Part shown: in pieces, positions 2,905-18,384 of the stretch
How the letters are laid out: the number at the start of each line of letters is the position of its first letter
Position numbering within the stretch: position 1 is the stretch's first letter
Source of the DNA: a phage
Reading direction: 5' to 3' (one strand)
Sequence record: QB023162.1
DNA length: 40,208 bases
Position numbers and translations under genes: made by a program
Notes under the pieces: generated by a model
Seen by the model: the letters and a program-made list of their open reading frames with translations, nothing else
Database searches by the model: none
What the model was told of the DNA's origin: nothing

Positions 2905-3260
2905 TTTCTCACCTGGATAAAGTATGCCACGACATCATCGTTAACCATCTTCTTCTCGATAGCTACGACGGGCCATTGCTCGCCGCCGAATTGCACCTTG
3001 TCTTCCATCTTAGGAACGACACTGCAATCGGCTTTAACAATCATGTCGCCCGCCTGAATCGTCGTACCGTTTACCAGTCCAACGTTTACCGGAACCGGAA
3101 CGGCCTTCAACGGCAGCACTTCATCGTCGGACCAGACGTACTCACCGAGAACTTCATCCCACGCTTTAGGGCCAGCACGAACAAGAGATACTGTGCTACC
3201 GAATTTGGTTAACAGGCGTGTACCAACGCCTTGCATACGTTTACTAAAGGCGGTGCTCAT
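2901..3260 (-). CDS. putative head closure / head-tail joining protein (119 aa)
   Basis: Synteny and size. SD AGAGAGGG upstream of ATG 3260. Confidence 0.3.
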   Translation of the reverse strand: MSTAFSKRMQGVGTRLLTKFGSTVSLVRAGPKAWDEVLGEYVWSDDEVLPLKAVPVPVNVGLVNGTTIQAGDMIVKADCSVVPKMEDKVQFGGEQWPVVAIEKKMVNDDVVAYFIQVRK

Positions 3261-3370
3261 TCTAGCCCTCTCTTAGTCGAAAGAATGTTGGCTAATTCCT
3301 TACTTGCATCAGACAACCGCTTCTTATGACCGTAACTACGTTTTATTACGCGGCGTTTTTTAACCTCCAT
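3257..3370 (-). CDS. unlisted 37-aa highly basic ORF (MEVKKRRVIKRSYGHKKRLSDASKELANILSTKRGLE)
   Basis: ATG at 3370 overlaps the TAA of the upstream gene (TAATG) and its TGA overlaps ATG 3260 (ATGA); it fills an otherwise empty 109-bp gap. Confidence 0.25.
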   Translation of the reverse strand: MEVKKRRVIKRSYGHKKRLSDASKELANILSTKRGLE

Positions 3371-3984
3371 TACGCGGCCTCCAGTCTCGATATAACCAGT
3401 AATGCTGACGGTGCAGTGCCCCATGCAGTTACGGTAGCCACTTGCGGGTATACGCCGCCGAAGTTGCTTCCGGCGCTATCCCGCATAATCTGAACGGCAA
3501 ATGTCTGGCCCGCGGTGGGGTTAATAACGACGCGAGATTCAATCGGGACTGTGGTGTCCGCGCTTACCAGTTTCGTGGCCGCGGGTGAGCCGTACTGAGC
3601 GCCGTTAAGAAGAATGCGTGATAAAAGGATTGATGTCCCACTAGCACCCGTACGCCCCGCCTGTAACTTGATGCGAACGGCGTAGTTACCCGCGGCGTTG
3701 AATGTAACCAGCCCTGCAGCATTAATCATTACCGGGTTAGACGCGCTTCCCTGGGCAGCACCGAAAGTTATTTGCAATGCTGTGCCCACTGCGGATGGTG
3801 CTTGTGCTACTGTCGACGCGGCACGGAGAACTTCAACCTCTTTAACCCCCGGAGTGGCATAGATAGGCGAGTCAGCCATCTGTGTCATTACCTCGCGCAA
3901 TGCGGCTGGGGTAATAAGTCCGGTGGTATTATCAGGGAGATTTGCGCCGATAAGAGTAAACATCTCTGATTTAGTCTTAGCCAT
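3370..3984 (-). CDS. virion structural protein, function unresolved (204 aa)
   Basis: ORF table; sits in the connector gene series; Ala/Gly/Thr-rich. Confidence 0.35.
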   Translation of the reverse strand: MAKTKSEMFTLIGANLPDNTTGLITPAALREVMTQMADSPIYATPGVKEVEVLRAASTVAQAPSAVGTALQITFGAAQGSASNPVMINAAGLVTFNAAGNYAVRIKLQAGRTGASGTSILLSRILLNGAQYGSPAATKLVSADTTVPIESRVVINPTAGQTFAVQIMRDSAGSNFGGVYPQVATVTAWGTAPSALLVISRLEAA

Positions 3985-4688: not shown

Positions 4689-4715
4689 AAAGGGGCCGTA
4701 GCCCCTTTGTTTTTA
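4689..4715. terminator. stem-loop terminator downstream of the major capsid gene
   Basis: AGGGGC-cgta-GCCCCT stem-loop (4691..4706) with T-tract on plus (TTGTTTTT) and U-tract on minus; typical partial terminator after a capsid gene. Confidence 0.5.
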
Positions 4716-5701: not shown

Positions 5702-6328
5702 TTATCCTCGTTTGCCGTATTTGGCGTTAAGTTTTTGCTGGATTACGTCCGTACCACCGGCCCCGCCAGTAGAATTTTTGTTACCGGAAGCCCCGCCGCC
5801 GGTTGCTGCATCTGCTTTAATCAGATGCGAAAATGCTTTGTGCTCACGCAGATACTTTTTAAATTGCTCTGCGTCGGTGGTGATGACATTACCGTCCGCA
5901 CCTGTGAACTTGGTCACAACGTCATCGCCGTCAAATTCGGTCTTTACCATCATAGCGATGATATCTGCTGCGCTCTCATCAATCAACATGCCAGACAACT
6001 GGCTGATAACTGATTTACGTTCTGCGCCGAGGATACGCTCAGCCATTTTGCTAATCTTACCGTCTTTCTCGGCGAGTACTGGCTCATACTGACTGCGCAA
6101 CGTTTTCTCGAATGCCTCAAGTTCGCCGTTCTGTTTTGCGCGTTCCTGTTCGGCTTTCAGCTTCGCATCTGCGGCTTCTTTCGCAGCAGCGGCGGCAGCT
6201 TTCTTTTCAGACAAGAGTTTCTCGTTGTTAGCTTTAAGACCGGATACCAGCTCGTCAACTTCTTCTTTGGTAAACGTGGTCTTAGTCTCTTGTTGTTCGA
6301 TAGTTTCGTCTTTCACTTCTTCGCTCAT
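5702..6328 (-). CDS. scaffolding protein (208 aa from ATG 6328; table start is TTG 6379)
   Basis: Ala/Lys/Glu-rich coiled-coil composition; position between spanins and capsid gene; SD AGGGGA 6 nt before ATG 6328. Confidence 0.55.
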   Translation of the reverse strand: MSEEVKDETIEQQETKTTFTKEEVDELVSGLKANNEKLLSEKKAAAAAAKEAADAKLKAEQERAKQNGELEAFEKTLRSQYEPVLAEKDGKISKMAERILGAERKSVISQLSGMLIDESAADIIAMMVKTEFDGDDVVTKFTGADGNVITTDAEQFKKYLREHKAFSHLIKADAATGGGASGNKNSTGGAGGTDVIQQKLNAKYGKRG

Positions 6329-6407
6329 CAGTATGTCCCCTGGACGTTGGAATCCGGGCCACCCGGATTTACATGTCAAGAATAAATTATTCCAACATGC
6401 AAGGCAA

Positions 6408-6671
6408 CTATTCCAGAATATTCCTCACGTAATCCTGCAACATGAACACTTTCAGACGCAGTTTCCGTACACATTCAGCGTTCTGAACGTCGATAGCTAA
6501 ATCCTCGTCCGCGTCGCTACTTGGCGCGGCCAGTTTGCACGGTGGCTGCATCATCATCGTATCCGGGGATGGAATTGGCGTTTGCGACGGCGCGGGACTT
6601 AAGCTGCACGCGCTCAGGGTCAAAAGTGCACACGCTGCGACCAGGCGTTTTAATGTACTTAACGACTTCAC
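6408..6671 (-). CDS. Rz1: o-spanin (Rz1-like outer-membrane lipoprotein), GTG start
   Basis: Signal peptide with lipobox LTLSAC, then a Pro-rich segment (SPAPSQTPIPSP). Starts inside Rz in another frame and extends past its stop. SD CAGAGG before GTG 6671. Confidence 0.7.
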   Translation of the reverse strand: MKSLSTLKRLVAACALLTLSACSLSPAPSQTPIPSPDTMMMQPPCKLAAPSSDADEDLAIDVQNAECVRKLRLKVFMLQDYVRNILE

Positions 6672-6903
6672 GTGTAATTACCTCTGATTTCGTCTTGCCT
6701 TCGTTATCAGCGGCTGCGGCCTTCGACTCATCCTGCTGCTGCCGTTGTGTTTTCTTCGCTAACTCAGCCTGTGCTTTCTGCTGTTGCTGTGAAACGAGAT
6801 TACCCCGACCTTCGTTCCAGCCGCTGCGATACTGGTAGATGCCGTGTGCGTAGGCCAGGACTATGAAACATGCCCCCGCTACGACAGTTGCTTTAAGATT
6901 CAT
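6517..6903 (-). CDS. Rz: i-spanin (Rz-like)
   Basis: N-terminal transmembrane segment followed by a charged, Gln-rich coiled-coil periplasmic domain; SD GAAAGGGG before ATG 6903; overlaps Rz1. Confidence 0.7.
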   Translation of the reverse strand: MNLKATVVAGACFIVLAYAHGIYQYRSGWNEGRGNLVSQQQQKAQAELAKKTQRQQQDESKAAAADNEGKTKSEVITREVVKYIKTPGRSVCTFDPERVQLKSRAVANANSIPGYDDDAATVQTGRAK

Positions 6904-6927
6904 GTTTCCCCTTTCTCGATAAGTAAA

Positions 6928-6947
6928 GCCCCGCCTTAAAGCGGGGC
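6928..6947 (-). promoter_or_regulatory. GC stem-loop about 25 nt upstream of the Rz start
   Basis: GCCCCGC-cttaaa-GCGGGGC inverted repeat; on the minus strand it is followed by TTTACTT, so it is at most a weak terminator and possibly a 5' mRNA hairpin. Confidence 0.3.
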
Positions 6948-7223
6948 GCTAGTCCTTATCATTTAAACATAGAAACGGCGTAATCTCAGTAAACCCGTTA
7001 CTTTTTACACAAGCAATAGAGTACAGCCCTTCCGAACGCGTCAGCGTAACTACACTCGGACTTAACGTCCGGCTCCGTTACCTGCCCGCGCCGCGGTCGC
7101 TTGTTCATACTTCACAAGCTCAGGTGGAGCTTATCATATTTTTAGTGAAAAGTCAACTATTCGAATAGTGTATTCCAACATTTACAATTGAGTGGAATAA
7201 CTGGAATAATCACAGGCACTAAA

Positions 7224-7241
7224 AAGCCCCTTTCGGGGCTT
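7224..7241 (-). terminator. rho-independent terminator after the 153-aa gene
   Basis: AAGCCCC-tttc-GGGGCTT stem-loop directly after stop 7246..7248; U-tract TTTAGTG on the minus strand. Confidence 0.55.
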
Positions 7242-7245
7242 CAGT

Positions 7246-7707
7246 TTATTCTGGCTTAGTTACCTTCGCCGCTTTACTGACAGCCTCTACACCCTCGGCA
7301 TCGGTGACTTTAACGAAGTATCCACCTACCGCATTAACCGTCAGAGACAAAGCCTCTTCCGGGGCGTTTACCACTTCCTTACCGTCTTTGTACCAGGTCA
7401 GAGCATACGGCGCTTTGCCCGCCTTAACTTCGACAGCGATAGTTGCGCTGCCGTCTACCAGTTCAGCGTCCTGCGGTTGCACCGAGAAATACACATCGCC
7501 AGCATCAGCCAGATACGGAATTTCATAAAGCATGCCCGCCGCGGGTAACGCAATACCGGTTTTATCTGCAAACGGCATATCGTCTACGGGTGTACCGAGT
7601 ACACTTTCATCATCAATAAACACCACGTTCTCACCAGAGCCAGACACGCGGGCGTACTTGACTACGCGACGTGAAGGTACATCAGTTACTTTGAAAAAGC
7701 CCATCAT
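7246..7707 (-). CDS. hypothetical head-module protein (153 aa)
   Basis: ORF table; start overlaps the stop of the head morphogenesis gene; SD AGGGGA before the ATG pair at 7707/7704. Confidence 0.4.
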   Translation of the reverse strand: MMGFFKVTDVPSRRVVKYARVSGSGENVVFIDDESVLGTPVDDMPFADKTGIALPAAGMLYEIPYLADAGDVYFSVQPQDAELVDGSATIAVEVKAGKAPYALTWYKDGKEVVNAPEEALSLTVNAVGGYFVKVTDAEGVEAVSKAAKVTKPE

Positions 7708-8851: not shown

Positions 8852-9055
8852 ATGTATGCAATTTGCGAAGTAGTTCCAGAGTTCGATGAAGAGTTCGACG
8901 GCGACCTGTACCGGGTTAAAAAGGTTCTTCAGGTTTTCCCTGACGTAAACTCTGCTGATAGAGCACTATACGTGTTTGACCCCGCAAGATACGGGGACTA
9001 CGACACTGTTCTGAGGGTTGTCCATGAGGATTACATAAACACAAGATTCCGTTGA
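8852..9055 (+). CDS. small acidic hypothetical protein (67 aa), antisense moron inside the late operon
   Basis: Own promoter and operator, SD CAGGAGG, and its own terminator; opposite strand to the flanking portal and head genes. Confidence 0.5.
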   Translation: MYAICEVVPEFDEEFDGDLYRVKKVLQVFPDVNSADRALYVFDPARYGDYDTVLRVVHEDYINTRFR

Positions 9056-9060
9056 AAACT

Positions 9061-9087
9061 AAGGCCCCAAACGGGGCCTTTTTCTTT
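9061..9087. terminator. bidirectional terminator
   Basis: AAGGCCCC-aaac-GGGGCCTT stem-loop with TTTTCTTT on plus and a U-rich tract on minus; lies between the moron stop and the portal stop. Confidence 0.6.
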
Positions 9088-14509: not shown

Positions 14510-14995
14510 TCATTTAACGGCTCTCCCAATAGCCTCAGCCTCTTGCCACGGTTTACCGTCGAACAGCGCCAGACGCCCGGATGTACGGCGACGCAGGCCG
14601 AGTAACGGCTTGCCGTTCTGGTTGATGAACAGCGCCAGCTTGGCACGCAGTGTTGCAATATCTCCTGAGCGCAGGGCCTTGCCCGTGCCAGTAGTAGACG
14701 CAATCACGCCGGCGCCCGCGTTATAGACCAGGTCGCACACTGCATCAAACTGTGCCTGTGTCAGTGAATGGTGTCCTGCGGCATCGACCGCGGCTACTGC
14801 CTTAGCCATATCGCGATTCAGTAACAGCAAGCCCTGTCCAGGGGTGATGGTCTGTCCTGCCTTAACATGTGGGCCGTGGCTTCCGTACCCAATAGTAAGG
14901 TACTTCTCGTTCGGCGTAGCACGATACGCAGTTCCACGGAATCCCTCGAACGCGGCGGTAAAATGCAGTCCATTATCTGAAATGTTTCGAGACAC
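14510..14995 (-). CDS. endolysin, phage lysozyme (GH24-like, resembles P22 gp19)
   Basis: Recalled similarity to P22 gp19 around FEGFRGTAY...TIGYGSHG, QFDAVCDLVYNAG and the Arg-rich LLGLRRR region; GTG start with SD GGAGGA 7 nt upstream; no N-terminal transmembrane segment. Confidence 0.8.
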   Translation of the reverse strand: MSRNISDNGLHFTAAFEGFRGTAYRATPNEKYLTIGYGSHGPHVKAGQTITPGQGLLLLNRDMAKAVAAVDAAGHHSLTQAQFDAVCDLVYNAGAGVIASTTGTGKALRSGDIATLRAKLALFINQNGKPLLGLRRRTSGRLALFDGKPWQEAEAIGRAVK

Positions 14996-15245
14996 GCTTA
15001 TGTCCTCCGTATGACAGCCACGCCTGACGAATCTGGCGCAGCGCGACTAATGTGATTAATGTCCCAGGCAGCGTTGGCGACATGCCACCCTGTAACAGGT
15101 GGATACATCCGGCGGCGCAGACAATAGCGGTCAGGATATAGAGCACCCGACCGAATAGCCCGTCGTCCACGCTGGGATGATACACATTAAACAGCGATGT
15201 ACCCCCGATTGCCAGCATACCGCCGAACCAGAATAACTCATTCAT
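14973..15245 (-). CDS. holin-like / antiholin membrane protein (90 aa)
   Basis: Two to three predicted transmembrane helices; between holin and endolysin with overlaps on both sides; SD GAGGAGG. Confidence 0.45.
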   Translation of the reverse strand: MNELFWFGGMLAIGGTSLFNVYHPSVDDGLFGRVLYILTAIVCAAGCIHLLQGGMSPTLPGTLITLVALRQIRQAWLSYGGHKRVSKHFR

Positions 15246-15546
15246 CCGGGCCTCCTCGACGTGAGATGTATTCTCCGGCGACGATACCGGAGAGGCGGGA
15301 ATAGATGGGCATCCAGAGAATAGCGATAATGAATCCGAGGCCAGCTATCTCACGCTCCCCAGTAATGCCAAACCATTGCGCGGCAAGAGGTGCACCAAAC
15401 ACGGCACAGGTGAAACCAGTTGCAATAAAGCAGAAGCCATCGATAGGGCCAGAAATAACGGACTTATGTTGTCGTAGTCCGATTACCCCACCGGCTAGTG
15501 CGGCAGCCAGAAGCCAGCCTGTCACTGTTTCAGTAAATTTATCCAA
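15238..15546 (-). CDS. putative holin (102 aa, three hydrophobic segments), TTG start
   Basis: Three hydrophobic helices; first gene of the holin-endolysin cassette; SD GGAGGA 6 nt before TTG 15546, with no in-frame ATG nearby. Confidence 0.55.
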   Translation of the reverse strand: MDKFTETVTGWLLAAALAGGVIGLRQHKSVISGPIDGFCFIATGFTCAVFGAPLAAQWFGITGEREIAGLGFIIAILWMPIYSRLSGIVAGEYISRRGGPDE

Positions 15547-17953: not shown

Positions 17954-18323
17954 GAGATTAGTTACGCTGCCGTTGTGATTCTTTCGAAACTGTTGTGCCT
18001 TTATTCTTATTACTTGGTAACTAAAGGGCAGGCCTTAAGCCTGCCCAATAATCGTTACATTTTTACGGTTGCGAATCTACGGCATTTTAAGAAAATCAGA
18101 TACTTAAGAGATATGCTGCCGATGAGAATAGAGCTTGCCCAGGGCAACCGGAGATACTTAGGAAGGAAAGTTACGATAATTCTTATGTTCAGTAAGCCTG
18201 TGTTTAACCCTTTGCTTGTCGCACGGGTTAAACATTCTTACGAGGTGAACAGGAATCAAAGTAACTAAGATATAGAAGCACCTTAAACGAAGATTTTCAT
18301 AATGTCAATAGGTACGATTATGT

Positions 18324-18352
18324 TTGATTTCCCATTATTCGCAATGTATACT
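18324..18352 (+). promoter_or_regulatory. sigma70-like promoter for the rightward early operon
   Basis: TTGATT (18324..18329), 17-nt spacer, TATACT (18347..18352); 32 nt upstream of ATG 18385; no operator palindrome. Confidence 0.45.
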
Positions 18353-18384
18353 CGGTTTCGTTAACTGATAATGAGGGCTTTGGA

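What the first reader, a model, noticed from the sequence alone, without database searches (positions are those of the whole stretch)
6380..7245. Rz/Rz1 spanin pair displaced into the head-assembly module as a self-contained cassette
The overlapped i-spanin/o-spanin pair (6408..6903) sits between the scaffold gene and the 153-aa head-module gene, about 8 kb from the holin-endolysin cassette (14510..15546). It is bracketed by a terminator at 7224..7241, a hairpin at 6928..6947 and a hairpin at 6351..6369. Both flanks carry the sequence TATTCCAACAT (6388..6398 and 7171..7181) and a 12-bp palindrome CTATTCGAATAG lies at 7157..7168. This looks like an independently acquired and independently regulated lysis cassette.
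Basis: partly seen in the sequence, partly recalled or inferred. Interest (0 to 1): 0.5.

Follow-up and report, generated by a model that had tools for sequence, protein, structure and literature searches.

The report
Spanin genes in their usual Kagunavirus place
The two outer-membrane-lysis (spanin) genes are real, but their position inside the head-gene block is the normal, long-annotated layout of this whole phage group rather than a recent mobile insertion; the one new item is a conserved folded RNA leader just upstream of them.

Summary
The window is a Kagunavirus (Guernseyvirinae), about 95% identical to phages K1H, P AB-2017 and UTI89UKE1. Rz (6517..6903, minus) and Rz1 (6408..6671, minus) are a genuine overlapped spanin pair about 7.6 kb from the holin-holin-endolysin genes.

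The same order, morphogenesis-Hoc-Rz/Rz1-scaffold-capsid, occurs in all 48 related IMG/VR loci. It also occurs in Jersey, GRNsp27 and Cornellvirus, and (without Hoc) in Dhillonvirus. It is annotated in GenBank, for example K1H ORF5/6. It is therefore old and known, not a recent acquisition. Distant relatives with morphogenesis-scaffold directly adjacent, and a Klebsiella phage with homologous spanins after its endolysin, show an ancient relocation did happen.

The cassette is not self-contained here. No terminator separates Rz1 from the scaffold gene. The flanking repeats are parts of conserved regulatory blocks, not insertion scars.

Upstream lie a terminator, a conserved sigma-70 promoter with an extended -10, and a 217-nt non-coding leader. 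The leader holds a ~100-nt covarying two-hairpin RNA with no Rfam match. Sibling phages carry a second copy of the promoter-plus-RNA module in their early region. Its function is unknown.

The parts
6517..6903 (-). Rz, i-spanin, 128 aa: N-terminal transmembrane segment (residues 5-23), Gln/Ala-rich helical periplasmic domain, one periplasmic Cys
   Evidence: phrog_2536 'Rz-like spanin' E=2.7e-56. Maximum Kyte-Doolittle 19-residue score is 1.71 at residue 5. Annotated as a spanin in K1H, Jersey and Sciku.
6408..6671 (-). Rz1, o-spanin, 87 aa, GTG start: signal peptide, lipobox L-S-A-C (Cys22), Pro-rich mature N-terminus, two further Cys. It overlaps Rz by 155 nt in the +1 frame.
   Evidence: phrog_5672 E=5.5e-30 and phrog_1267 E=4e-19. 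Lipobox found here and in 36 of 47 relatives by a crude scan.
7219..7241 (-). Intrinsic terminator ending the terminase-portal-morphogenesis-Hoc transcription unit; the hairpin is also read as terminator-like on the plus strand
   Evidence: Conserved, with different stem sequences in the Jersey type. Annotated as a terminator in Sciku and fBC-Eco01.
7157..7210 (.). Upstream regulatory block. Holds GGAATAACTGGAATAA (7193..7208, plus strand), TGTAAA/TTTACA, GGAATA (inside TATTCCAACAT 7171..7181) and the palindrome CTATTCGAATAG (7157..7168). On the plus strand it reads as a TTTACA-18-TGgAATAAT promoter-like site (7181..7210). In relatives the opposite-strand morons inserted here lie downstream of it on that strand.
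   Evidence: Blocks are conserved from the Kagunavirus type to the Jersey type with variable spacers of constant length. Plus-strand promoter scan hit, 10 of 12 with TG. Insertions of 165-780 bp with plus-strand ORFs occur in relatives.
7128..7156 (-). Sigma-70 promoter P: -35 TTGACT (7156..7151), 17-nt spacer, extended -10 TGaTAAGCT (7136..7128). Predicted start near 7121-7125.
   Evidence: -35, spacing, TG and T-A-n-n-n-T of the -10 are conserved in the Kagunavirus and Jersey types; the GRNsp27 type keeps the TG, the -10 pattern and the spacing but has a weak -35 (GTGGAT/TGGACT). Coincides with 'Host promoter1' predicted in fBC-Eco01. The same promoter precedes the second RNA copy in sibling phages. 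Not detected by the simple scan, because the -10 matches only 3 of 6.
7022..7122 (-). Conserved structured RNA element at the 5' end of the leader. H0 hairpin is 7119..7099. H1, a long irregular hairpin of three helices with conserved internal loops, is 7096..7032. The single-stranded motif CGGAAGGGC follows.
   Evidence: Fold z=-3.4 for the whole leader. Covariance model R1 hits the orthologous place in all Kagunavirus-type loci (97-127 bits) and Jersey-type loci (29-37 bits). 95% of cells are paired; 14-16 of 29 pairs change on both sides; 0 of 500 shuffles reach the score. No Rfam match.
6998..7108 (-). 'orf36', annotated as a hypothetical protein in some relatives; most likely not coding and part of the RNA leader
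   Evidence: Variable sites by codon position are 14/15/11. The ORF is broken in 7 of 37 distinct Kagunavirus-type sequences. Its ATG is deleted in the Jersey type. No Pfam or PHROG hit.
6918..6960 (-). H3: extended hairpin just before the Rz Shine-Dalgarno sequence. Upper stem GCCCCGC/GCGGGGC is 6947..6928; lower stem GAUAAG/CUUAUC. A weak or partial terminator, or a structural element.
   Evidence: Both stems covary between Kagunavirus and Jersey types (CCCCGC to CCCGGC to CCCTGC; GAUAAG/CUUAUC to UAUACG/CGUAUA). The U-tract is degenerate in the Jersey type.
6329..6424 (-). Rz1 3' end plus the Rz1-scaffold spacer: GGAATATTCTGGAATAG, ATGTTGGAATA, palindrome GAATAAtTTATTC, TTGACA, hairpin 6369..6351, then the scaffold Shine-Dalgarno sequence GGGGA and ATG at 6328
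   Evidence: 78-100% conserved even where the scaffold gene is about 60% identical. Two compensatory pairs in the hairpin (AAUCCGGG/CCCGGAUU versus ACACCGGG/CCCGGUGU). No U-tract.

Best explanation
**What it is.** This is the ordinary two-component spanin pair (Rz/Rz1) of a Kagunavirus, sitting where every member of Guernseyvirinae keeps it. That place is between the Hoc-like decoration gene and the scaffold gene, and far from holin/endolysin.

**History.** The location is inherited, not recently acquired. An ancestor shared with Dhillonvirus-like phages already had Rz/Rz1 at the head-morphogenesis/scaffold junction. That junction is a recurrent insertion slot. Hoc, a terminator, a promoter/leader and assorted opposite-strand morons were added there later.

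**How it most likely works in this phage.**
- Transcription from the packaging genes stops at the terminator after Hoc (7241..7219).
- A conserved sigma-70 promoter with an extended -10 (7156..7128) restarts it.
- The transcript begins with a 217-nt non-coding, structured leader: hairpins H0 and H1, the CGGAAGG motif, then hairpin H3.
- It then runs through Rz/Rz1 and, with no terminator in between, into the scaffold and major capsid genes.
- The spanins are therefore the first genes of the main structural operon, much as lambda S-R-Rz-Rz1 lead the late operon. They are not an autonomous lysis cassette.

**Shown versus inferred.**
- Shown: gene identity, synteny, conservation of the promoter elements, and covariation of the RNA helices.
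- Inferred: promoter activity, co-transcription with the scaffold gene, and any role of the leader. The most likely roles are 5' stabilisation or processing and control of read-through or translation.
For: - **Identity.**
- **Same gene order.** Found in 48 of 48 IMG/VR loci, in K1H, Sciku, fBC-Eco01 and Jersey annotations, and in GRNsp27 and Cornellvirus W5.
- **Dhillonvirus.** SO-1 and JLBYU37 have terS-terL-portal-morphogenesis-Rz/Rz1-moron-scaffold. Their holin-holin-endolysin lies upstream of terS.
- **Ancient relocation.** The canonical holin-endolysin-Rz/Rz1 arrangement occurs with homologous proteins in Klebsiella phage Kp4856-1. Empty morphogenesis-scaffold junctions occur in distant relatives.
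- **In the literature.** The fBC-Eco01 paper states that the spanins are apart from the other three lysis genes (PMC9825357). Unlinked spanins are known from T4 (PMC6139136).
- **Signals.** The terminator, the promoter, and the absence of a U-tract after Rz1. Lineages with a moron after Rz1 have a strong terminator there instead.
- **Leader RNA.**
- **orf36 is non-coding.**
Against: - No transcript data were available. The only Kagunavirus RNA-seq paper found gives no resolution at this locus.
- The -10 hexamer TAAGCT matches the consensus at only 3 of 6 positions.
- H3 could stop much of the transcription before Rz.
- A conserved TTGACA in the Rz1-scaffold spacer could mark a separate scaffold promoter. 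In that case the spanins would be a smaller unit than proposed.
- The covariation counts come from an alignment fitted to the model.
- In the Jersey type the model pairs part of the -10 region as the 5' arm of H0, so the H0 statistics are partly artefactual.
Confidence: 0.72

Rival explanations
1. One reading: a self-contained, independently acquired and independently regulated lysis cassette, bounded by repeats (TATTCCAACAT on both sides) and by hairpins.
For: - The repeats and hairpins exist.
- An imperfect inverted repeat also brackets promoter-leader-Rz-Rz1: 6408..6424 CTATTCCAGAATATTCC against 7193..7208 GGAATAACTGGAATAA.
- In one relative (L150) the same 16-mer flanks an opposite-strand moron in both orientations.
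- The morphogenesis/scaffold junction is empty in distant relatives.
- In Cornellvirus W5, the L158 type and Dhillonvirus, Rz1 is followed by a strong terminator, so the pair is a closed unit there.
Against: - The position is invariant across all relatives examined, with no presence/absence polymorphism.
- The 11-mer pair is missing in the Jersey type.
- One arm of the inverted repeat is the Rz1 C-terminal coding sequence.
- There is no terminator after Rz1 in this phage.
- No integrase or transposase is nearby.
Confidence: 0.07
2. The promoter-coupled RNA element (H0-H1) is a cis-acting processive antiterminator, working like HK022 put. The nascent RNA would bind RNA polymerase so that only transcripts started at this promoter read through H3, the hairpin after Rz1 and the terminator after the capsid gene.
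For: - The element starts within a few nucleotides of the predicted start site and consists of two stem-loops with bulges and conserved internal loops.
- Stems covary while loops stay constant.
- Sibling phages carry two diverged copies, each directly behind the same sigma-70 promoter. One is before the spanin/capsid operon and one is in the early region.
- Terminator-like hairpins follow at 6947..6928 and 4709..4689.
- No N-like or Q-like protein is annotated in K1H.
- These properties parallel putL/putR as described in PMC9378689.
Against: - There is no sequence or structure similarity to the HK022 early region (best E=0.1, and not at a put site).
- This window manages with one copy. Its early region carries an unrelated leader instead.
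- Partial termination after capsid genes is common without antitermination.
- There is no functional data.
Confidence: 0.13
3. The intergenic conservation reflects only recombination 'linker' sequences that promote module exchange, plus ordinary promoter DNA. The RNA structure would have no function of its own.
For: - The flanks are more conserved than the neighbouring genes.
- A mosaic breakpoint lies exactly at the scaffold start: K1H-type versus K1G-type scaffold, 98-100% versus about 65%.
- Variable insertions abut the conserved block.
- The early-region copy is swapped for unrelated sequence in this window.
Against: Compensatory changes keep 95% of pairs across lineages whose helices share little sequence. 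Slid controls give only 28-41% paired. Pure DNA homology tracts would not do this.
Confidence: 0.08

Closest known systems
Rz/Rz1-type two-component spanins as annotated in Kagunavirus and Jerseyvirus (K1H ORF5/ORF6, K1G, Jersey gp09/gp10, Sciku i-/o-spanin)
   Same: Same proteins (about 95% identity), same overlapped architecture, and same position between the Hoc-like and scaffold genes.
   Different: Nothing substantive. This window has the short 342-bp form of the upstream spacer, without the opposite-strand ORFs present in many relatives.
Lambda S-R-Rz-Rz1 lysis cassette at the head of the late operon (pR', 6S RNA, tR')
   Same: Spanins lie at the 5' end of a long structural-gene transcript, behind a promoter and a roughly 200-nt leader that ends in a terminator-like hairpin. 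A homologous Rz/Rz1 in the lambda-like arrangement exists in Klebsiella phage Kp4856-1.
   Different: Holin and endolysin are 7.6 kb upstream, ahead of the terminase genes. Rz1 overlaps Rz rather than being embedded in it. No Q protein was found.
T4 pseT.3/pseT.2 spanins
   Same: Spanin genes are unlinked from holin and endolysin (PMC6139136).
   Different: The T4 genes are separated rather than overlapped, are unrelated in sequence, and are not in a head module.
HK022 putL/putR antiterminator RNAs
   Same: Two-hairpin RNA directly behind a sigma-70 promoter. Up to two diverged copies per genome. Stems covary while loops are conserved.
   Different: No detectable homology. The element is longer (about 100 nt against about 70). 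Activity is untested.

Membership tests
Two-component spanin (i-spanin Rz + o-spanin Rz1) | i-spanin with a single N-terminal transmembrane segment and a helical periplasmic domain | tested here: met
   Residues 5-23 are hydrophobic (Kyte-Doolittle 19-residue score 1.71). A Gln/Ala/Lys-rich segment follows. The N-terminus is conserved in relatives.
Two-component spanin (i-spanin Rz + o-spanin Rz1) | o-spanin with a lipoprotein signal peptide and lipobox Cys, and a small Pro-rich mature protein | tested here: met
   MKSLSTLKRLVAACALLTLSA|C with lipobox LSAC. The +2 residue is Ser. The mature protein is 66 aa and starts CSLSPAPSQTPIPSP.
Two-component spanin (i-spanin Rz + o-spanin Rz1) | o-spanin gene embedded in, overlapping, or adjacent to the i-spanin gene in another frame | tested here: met
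   155-nt overlap, +1 frame, 'overlapped' class.
Two-component spanin (i-spanin Rz + o-spanin Rz1) | Periplasmic cysteines available for intermolecular disulfides | tested here: met
   Rz has Cys92. Mature Rz1 has two further Cys. The requirement is described in PMC6139136.
Two-component spanin (i-spanin Rz + o-spanin Rz1) | Sequence membership in a recognised spanin family | tested here: met
   phrog_2536 E=2.7e-56; phrog_5672 E=5.5e-30. There is no Pfam hit.
Two-component spanin (i-spanin Rz + o-spanin Rz1) | Required for outer-membrane disruption (spherical-cell arrest with divalent cations when deleted) | not testable with these tools
   Needs genetics.
Mobile or recently acquired gene cassette | Presence/absence polymorphism among close relatives, terminal repeats or target duplication, and an associated recombinase | tested here: not met
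   Present at the same place in 48 of 48 loci. The 11-mer pair is not conserved in the Jersey type. No recombinase gene is nearby. Empty sites occur only in distant relatives.
Self-contained transcription unit | Own promoter upstream and own terminator downstream | tested here: inconclusive
   An upstream terminator plus a conserved promoter are present. The downstream hairpin lacks a U-tract. Transcript ends were not measurable.
HK022 put-type antiterminator RNA | Homology to putL/putR | tested here: not met
   Model R1, run with filters off on HK022 positions 24000-40751, gave a best E of 0.1, downstream of Q.
HK022 put-type antiterminator RNA | Two bulged stem-loops directly downstream of a sigma-70 promoter, in two copies per genome | tested here: inconclusive
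   The architecture is similar. This window has one copy only.
HK022 put-type antiterminator RNA | Suppresses downstream terminators in cis by binding the RNA polymerase beta' zinc-binding domain | not testable with these tools
   Needs transcription assays.
Any Rfam family | Covariance-model match | tested here: not met
   No hit at gathering thresholds in the whole window. Only chance-level hits at E up to 10 in 6300..7300.

The most novel reading that the evidence does not exclude
The promoter-coupled two-hairpin RNA (window 7122..7022) is a new, protein-independent, cis-acting regulator of RNA polymerase. It would be a functional analogue of HK022 put that lets transcripts from this promoter run through internal terminators. 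That would set the timing and amount of spanin, scaffold and capsid expression in phages that have no RNA polymerase, N or Q of their own. A second copy sits in the early region of sibling phages.
Probability: 0.13. Interest if true: 0.65.

Novelty: already known. Interest (0 to 1): 0.28.

Why it matters
For the finding as given, it matters little. The split lysis layout (holin/endolysin before the terminase genes, spanins between the head-morphogenesis and scaffold genes) is the standard, annotated layout of Guernseyvirinae and Dhillonvirus.

It is a useful annotation rule: look for spanins at the morphogenesis/scaffold junction in these siphoviruses. It also illustrates that this junction is a long-lived insertion slot.

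The by-product may matter more. A covarying RNA leader with no Rfam match is coupled to a conserved host-type promoter and duplicated in some genomes. It is a testable handle on how these therapeutically used phages, which have no RNA polymerase of their own, organise their gene expression.

Tried and rejected
- **Known RNA or protein families.** Rfam at gathering thresholds on the whole window and at E up to 10 on 6300..7300 gave nothing meaningful. ARAGORN found no tRNA or tmRNA. Pfam gave nothing for Rz, Rz1, the scaffold protein or orf36.
- **orf36 as a small protein.** Rejected. It shows frameshifts, no third-position bias, and its ATG is absent in the Jersey type.
- **A second RNA copy in this window.** None was found, even with filters off.
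- **The RNA motif in bacterial genomes.** Of 33 pattern hits, 31 are chance by model score. The other two are phage contigs inside assemblies.
- **A sigma-70 promoter in the Rz1-scaffold spacer.** The -35 TTGACA is conserved in part, but no lineage has a usable -10 at 16-18 nt. This is left open rather than claimed.
- **A sigma-54 reading of TGGAATAGTTGCCTTGCAT.** Rejected by eye because the spacing is wrong.
- **Transcriptome literature.** The one Kagunavirus RNA-seq paper has no locus-level detail.
- **Homology to put.** Rejected.
- **Not attempted.** Structure prediction and the large protein-database searches were not used, because identity was already unambiguous.
Full report
**Observation.**
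- Two minus-strand ORFs, 6517..6903 (128 aa) and 6408..6671 (87 aa, GTG start), overlap by 155 nt in different frames.
- They lie between the scaffold gene and a 153-aa gene. The scaffold gene matches phrog_206; its ATG is at 6328 and is preceded by GGGGA. The 153-aa gene is a Hoc-like Ig-domain decoration protein (phrog_3945, E=1e-83).
- Two holins and a lysozyme-family endolysin occupy 15546..14510, 7.6 kb away on the same strand.
- The hairpins at 7224..7241, 6928..6947 and 6351..6369 all fold. The first two have U-rich tails on the minus strand. The third has none.
- TATTCCAACAT occurs exactly twice in the window, once in each flank. Two spacers of these sizes share an 11-mer in 0.9% of shuffles.
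- The 12-bp palindrome is real but weak: 8% of shuffles contain one.
- A stronger signal is that the only two clusters of at least 4 GAATA/TATTC pentamers within 80 bp anywhere in the 40 kb are these two flanks.

**What the genes are.** The window is a Kagunavirus (Guernseyvirinae), about 95-96% identical to UTI89UKE1, P AB-2017, BUCT789 and K1H across this region.
- Rz has an N-terminal transmembrane segment (residues 5-23) and a Gln/Ala-rich periplasmic domain with one Cys.
- Rz1 has a lipoprotein signal peptide with lipobox LSAC (Cys22), a Pro-rich mature N-terminus and two more Cys.
- PHROG spanin families match at E=2.7e-56 and 5.5e-30.

**Is the position unusual or recently acquired?** No.
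- All 48 IMG/VR loci that encode a relative of this Rz (63-97% identity) have the order morphogenesis-Hoc-spacer-Rz/Rz1-scaffold.
- The same order is annotated in K1H (ORF5/ORF6, 'overlapping gene'), Sciku, fBC-Eco01 and Jersey. It holds in GRNsp27 and Cornellvirus W5.
- Outside the subfamily, Dhillonvirus SO-1 and JLBYU37 have terS-terL-portal-morphogenesis-Rz/Rz1-(opposite-strand moron)-scaffold-capsid. Their holin-holin-endolysin lies just upstream of terS. This is the same split layout without Hoc.
- The fBC-Eco01 paper states the separation in words (PMC9825357). Unlinked spanins are a known situation (T4; PMC6139136).

- Klebsiella phage Kp4856-1 has clearly homologous Rz (38% identity) and Rz1 in the classical holin-endolysin-Rz/Rz1 arrangement ahead of its terminase.
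- Relatives found through the capsid protein (55-75% identity) have the morphogenesis gene followed after about 90 nt by the scaffold gene, with neither Hoc nor spanins. One example is L188.
- An intermediate group (L157-L160, L202) has morphogenesis-Rz/Rz1-moron-scaffold.
- The morphogenesis/scaffold junction is thus an old insertion slot that the spanins entered long before Kagunavirus and Jerseyvirus diverged.

**Upstream flank (6904..7245), read on the minus strand.**
- The Hoc stop is followed by an intrinsic terminator (7241..7219).
- Next comes a block of short conserved elements. These are TTATTCCAGTTATTCC, TGTAAAT, GGAATA and TATTCGAATAG. Spacers between them vary in sequence but keep a constant length from Kagunavirus to Jersey types.
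- Then comes a promoter: TTGACT (7156..7151), a 17-nt spacer, and TGaTAAGCT (7136..7128). Its -35, spacing, TG extension and T-A-n-n-n-T pattern are kept in the Kagunavirus and Jersey lineages; the GRNsp27-type sequences keep the extended -10 and spacing but have only a weak -35. It coincides with a promoter predicted in fBC-Eco01.
- On the opposite strand the same block reads as TTTACA-18-TGgAATAAT.
- In many relatives 165-780 bp carrying opposite-strand ORFs are inserted between this block and the terminator. Here nothing is inserted.

**Downstream flank (6329..6424).**
- It is 78-100% conserved even where the scaffold gene is only about 60% identical.
- It holds three GGAATA copies, the palindrome GAATAAtTTATTC, TTGACA, and a hairpin. 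The hairpin's stem shows two compensatory pair changes between lineages. It has no U-tract.
- The scaffold Shine-Dalgarno sequence follows 12 nt later.
- Lineages with a moron after Rz1 have a strong bidirectional terminator at that point instead.
- So in this phage the spanins are most simply the first genes of the scaffold/capsid operon, not a closed unit.
Both are present in 26 of 47 loci and in none of the Jersey type.

**The unexpected part: the leader RNA.** The 217 nt between the promoter and the Rz ATG are at least as conserved as the flanking genes. They are not coding.
- The 36-codon ORF annotated in some relatives has variable sites spread 14/15/11 over codon positions. It is broken in 7 of 37 distinct sequences and lacks its ATG in the Jersey type.
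- The leader folds with z=-3.4.
- Its first ~100 nt (7122..7022) form a small hairpin H0 and a long irregular hairpin H1. H1 has three helices separated by conserved internal loops (AACGGAG; GAGUGUAG). Single-stranded CGGAAGGGC follows.
- A covariance model built from Kagunavirus-type sequences finds the orthologous site in Jersey-type phages (29-37 bits, E 3e-6 to 2e-4).
- On the resulting alignments 95% of cells pair. 14-16 of 29 pairs change on both sides. No shuffle of 500 reaches the covariation score. Slid controls pair at 28-41%.
- Caveats: the alignment was fitted to the model, and in the Jersey type the H0 pairing chosen by the model uses part of the -10 region. A hairpin (ACGCU-UUC-AGCGU) is nevertheless present there.
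- The hairpin before the Rz Shine-Dalgarno sequence (H3, 6960..6918) also covaries in both its upper and lower stems.
- Rfam has no match.
- More divergent versions with the same flanking motifs occur in GRNsp27 and L150 but score below threshold.

**A second copy.** A pattern scan of IMG/VR found that several Kagunaviruses carry a second, diverged copy of the same promoter plus RNA element. These include the contig of P AB-2017, one of the window's closest relatives.
- The second copy lies about 11.7 kb away, in the early region beside the helix-turn-helix gene and the primase, ahead of a run of small ORFs.
- Its helices differ by compensatory changes while the loops are kept.
- This window has only one copy. 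At the equivalent early site (17987..18380) it carries an unrelated leader behind TTGACA-17-TAAGGT, ending in a terminator-like hairpin.
- In 596 Gb of bacterial genomes only two hits are real, and both are stray phage contigs.

**Mechanism.**
- Best supported: the spanins are ordinary Rz/Rz1. They are expressed from a host-type promoter as the leading genes of the main structural operon, behind a structured leader.
- What the leader does is inferred only. A 5'-terminal hairpin suggests protection from decay. The long bulged H1 could be a processing or protein-binding site. H3 could attenuate transcription or mask the Rz ribosome-binding site.
- The most novel reading is a put-like antiterminator RNA. 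It fits the position, the two-hairpin form, the two copies and the terminator-like hairpins downstream. It has no homology support and no functional data.

**Verdict.** The feature as reported is already known and ordinary for this phage group. The leader RNA is a modest new lead.

Noticed in passing
L072:11816-11918 (P AB-2017 contig); also L098, L109, L102, L086, L108, L069, L103, L074: Sibling Kagunaviruses carry a second, diverged copy of the same promoter plus H0-H1 RNA module in the early region. It sits next to the helix-turn-helix gene and the primase, upstream of small early ORFs.
   Followed up: partly
window 17987..18380 (minus strand): At the site where siblings have the second RNA copy, this window has non-homologous sequence: promoter-like TTGACA-17-TAAGGT (about 18305..18277), a different leader, and a terminator-like hairpin at 18046..18026. 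This looks like a module swap.
   Followed up: partly
window 8811, 16788, 17101, 17924, 21392, 23732, 27278, 39314 (exact); 7148, 14216, 21348 (one mismatch): The palindromic motif AATAG-N4-CTATT occurs 11 times against 0.9 expected. Several copies sit in intergenic or promoter-like contexts (8811, 17924, 23732). It matches the repeated 'phage promoter' motif reported for fBC-Eco01 and is probably an operator or promoter element of a phage regulator.
   Followed up: partly
window ORF ends at about 18786, 21084 and 23717 (plus strand): Three plus-strand early-region ORFs, including the helicase-primase and a 418-aa protein whose K1H counterpart is annotated as an exonuclease, all end in the same C-terminal peptide E-D-L-E. 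This may be a shared interaction tail.
   Followed up: no
L002:1889-2331, L056:1266-2120, L058:1532-2047 and 3216-3479, L054:5082-5600, L055:4310-5074: Both flanks of the spanin pair are hot spots for opposite-strand morons in relatives. Examples are a PAPS-reductase-like gene (phrog_424) in GRNsp27 and a phrog_3007 protein. The phrog_3007 protein sits upstream of Rz in Cornellvirus W5 but downstream of Rz1 in Dhillonvirus SO-1.
   Followed up: partly
window 6408..6424 and 7193..7208; L150:1632-1648 and 1950-1966: An imperfect inverted repeat (CTATTCCAGAATATTCC against GGAATAACTGGAATAA) brackets promoter-leader-Rz-Rz1. In L150 the same 16-mer flanks an opposite-strand moron in both orientations. 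It may be a recombination or boundary sequence, or an extended -10 element.
   Followed up: partly
window 6328/6329 (scaffold start): A mosaic breakpoint lies here. The scaffold gene is of K1H type (98-100% in 6 loci) but only about 65% identical in K1G-type phages, while the spacer and spanins upstream stay 92-100% identical.
   Followed up: partly
window 4709..4689 (minus strand): A strong intrinsic terminator (AAAGGGGC-UACG-GCCCCUUUUU) sits immediately after the major capsid gene. The Shine-Dalgarno sequence of the next gene follows directly, which is the usual device for high capsid-to-downstream ratios.
   Followed up: no
window 8852..9055 (plus strand), 9061..9080: A 67-aa opposite-strand ORF with its own AATAG-N4-CTATT motif (8811) and a bidirectional terminator sits between the portal and morphogenesis genes. 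It is another moron slot in the head module.
   Followed up: no
L124 (MAG 'Bacillota bacterium' 6.2-kb contig), L142 (Taishania pollutisoli 738-bp scaffold): Two bacterial assemblies contain the phage RNA element (66 and 31 bits). They are most likely Guernseyvirinae phage contigs mis-binned or contaminating those assemblies.
   Followed up: no
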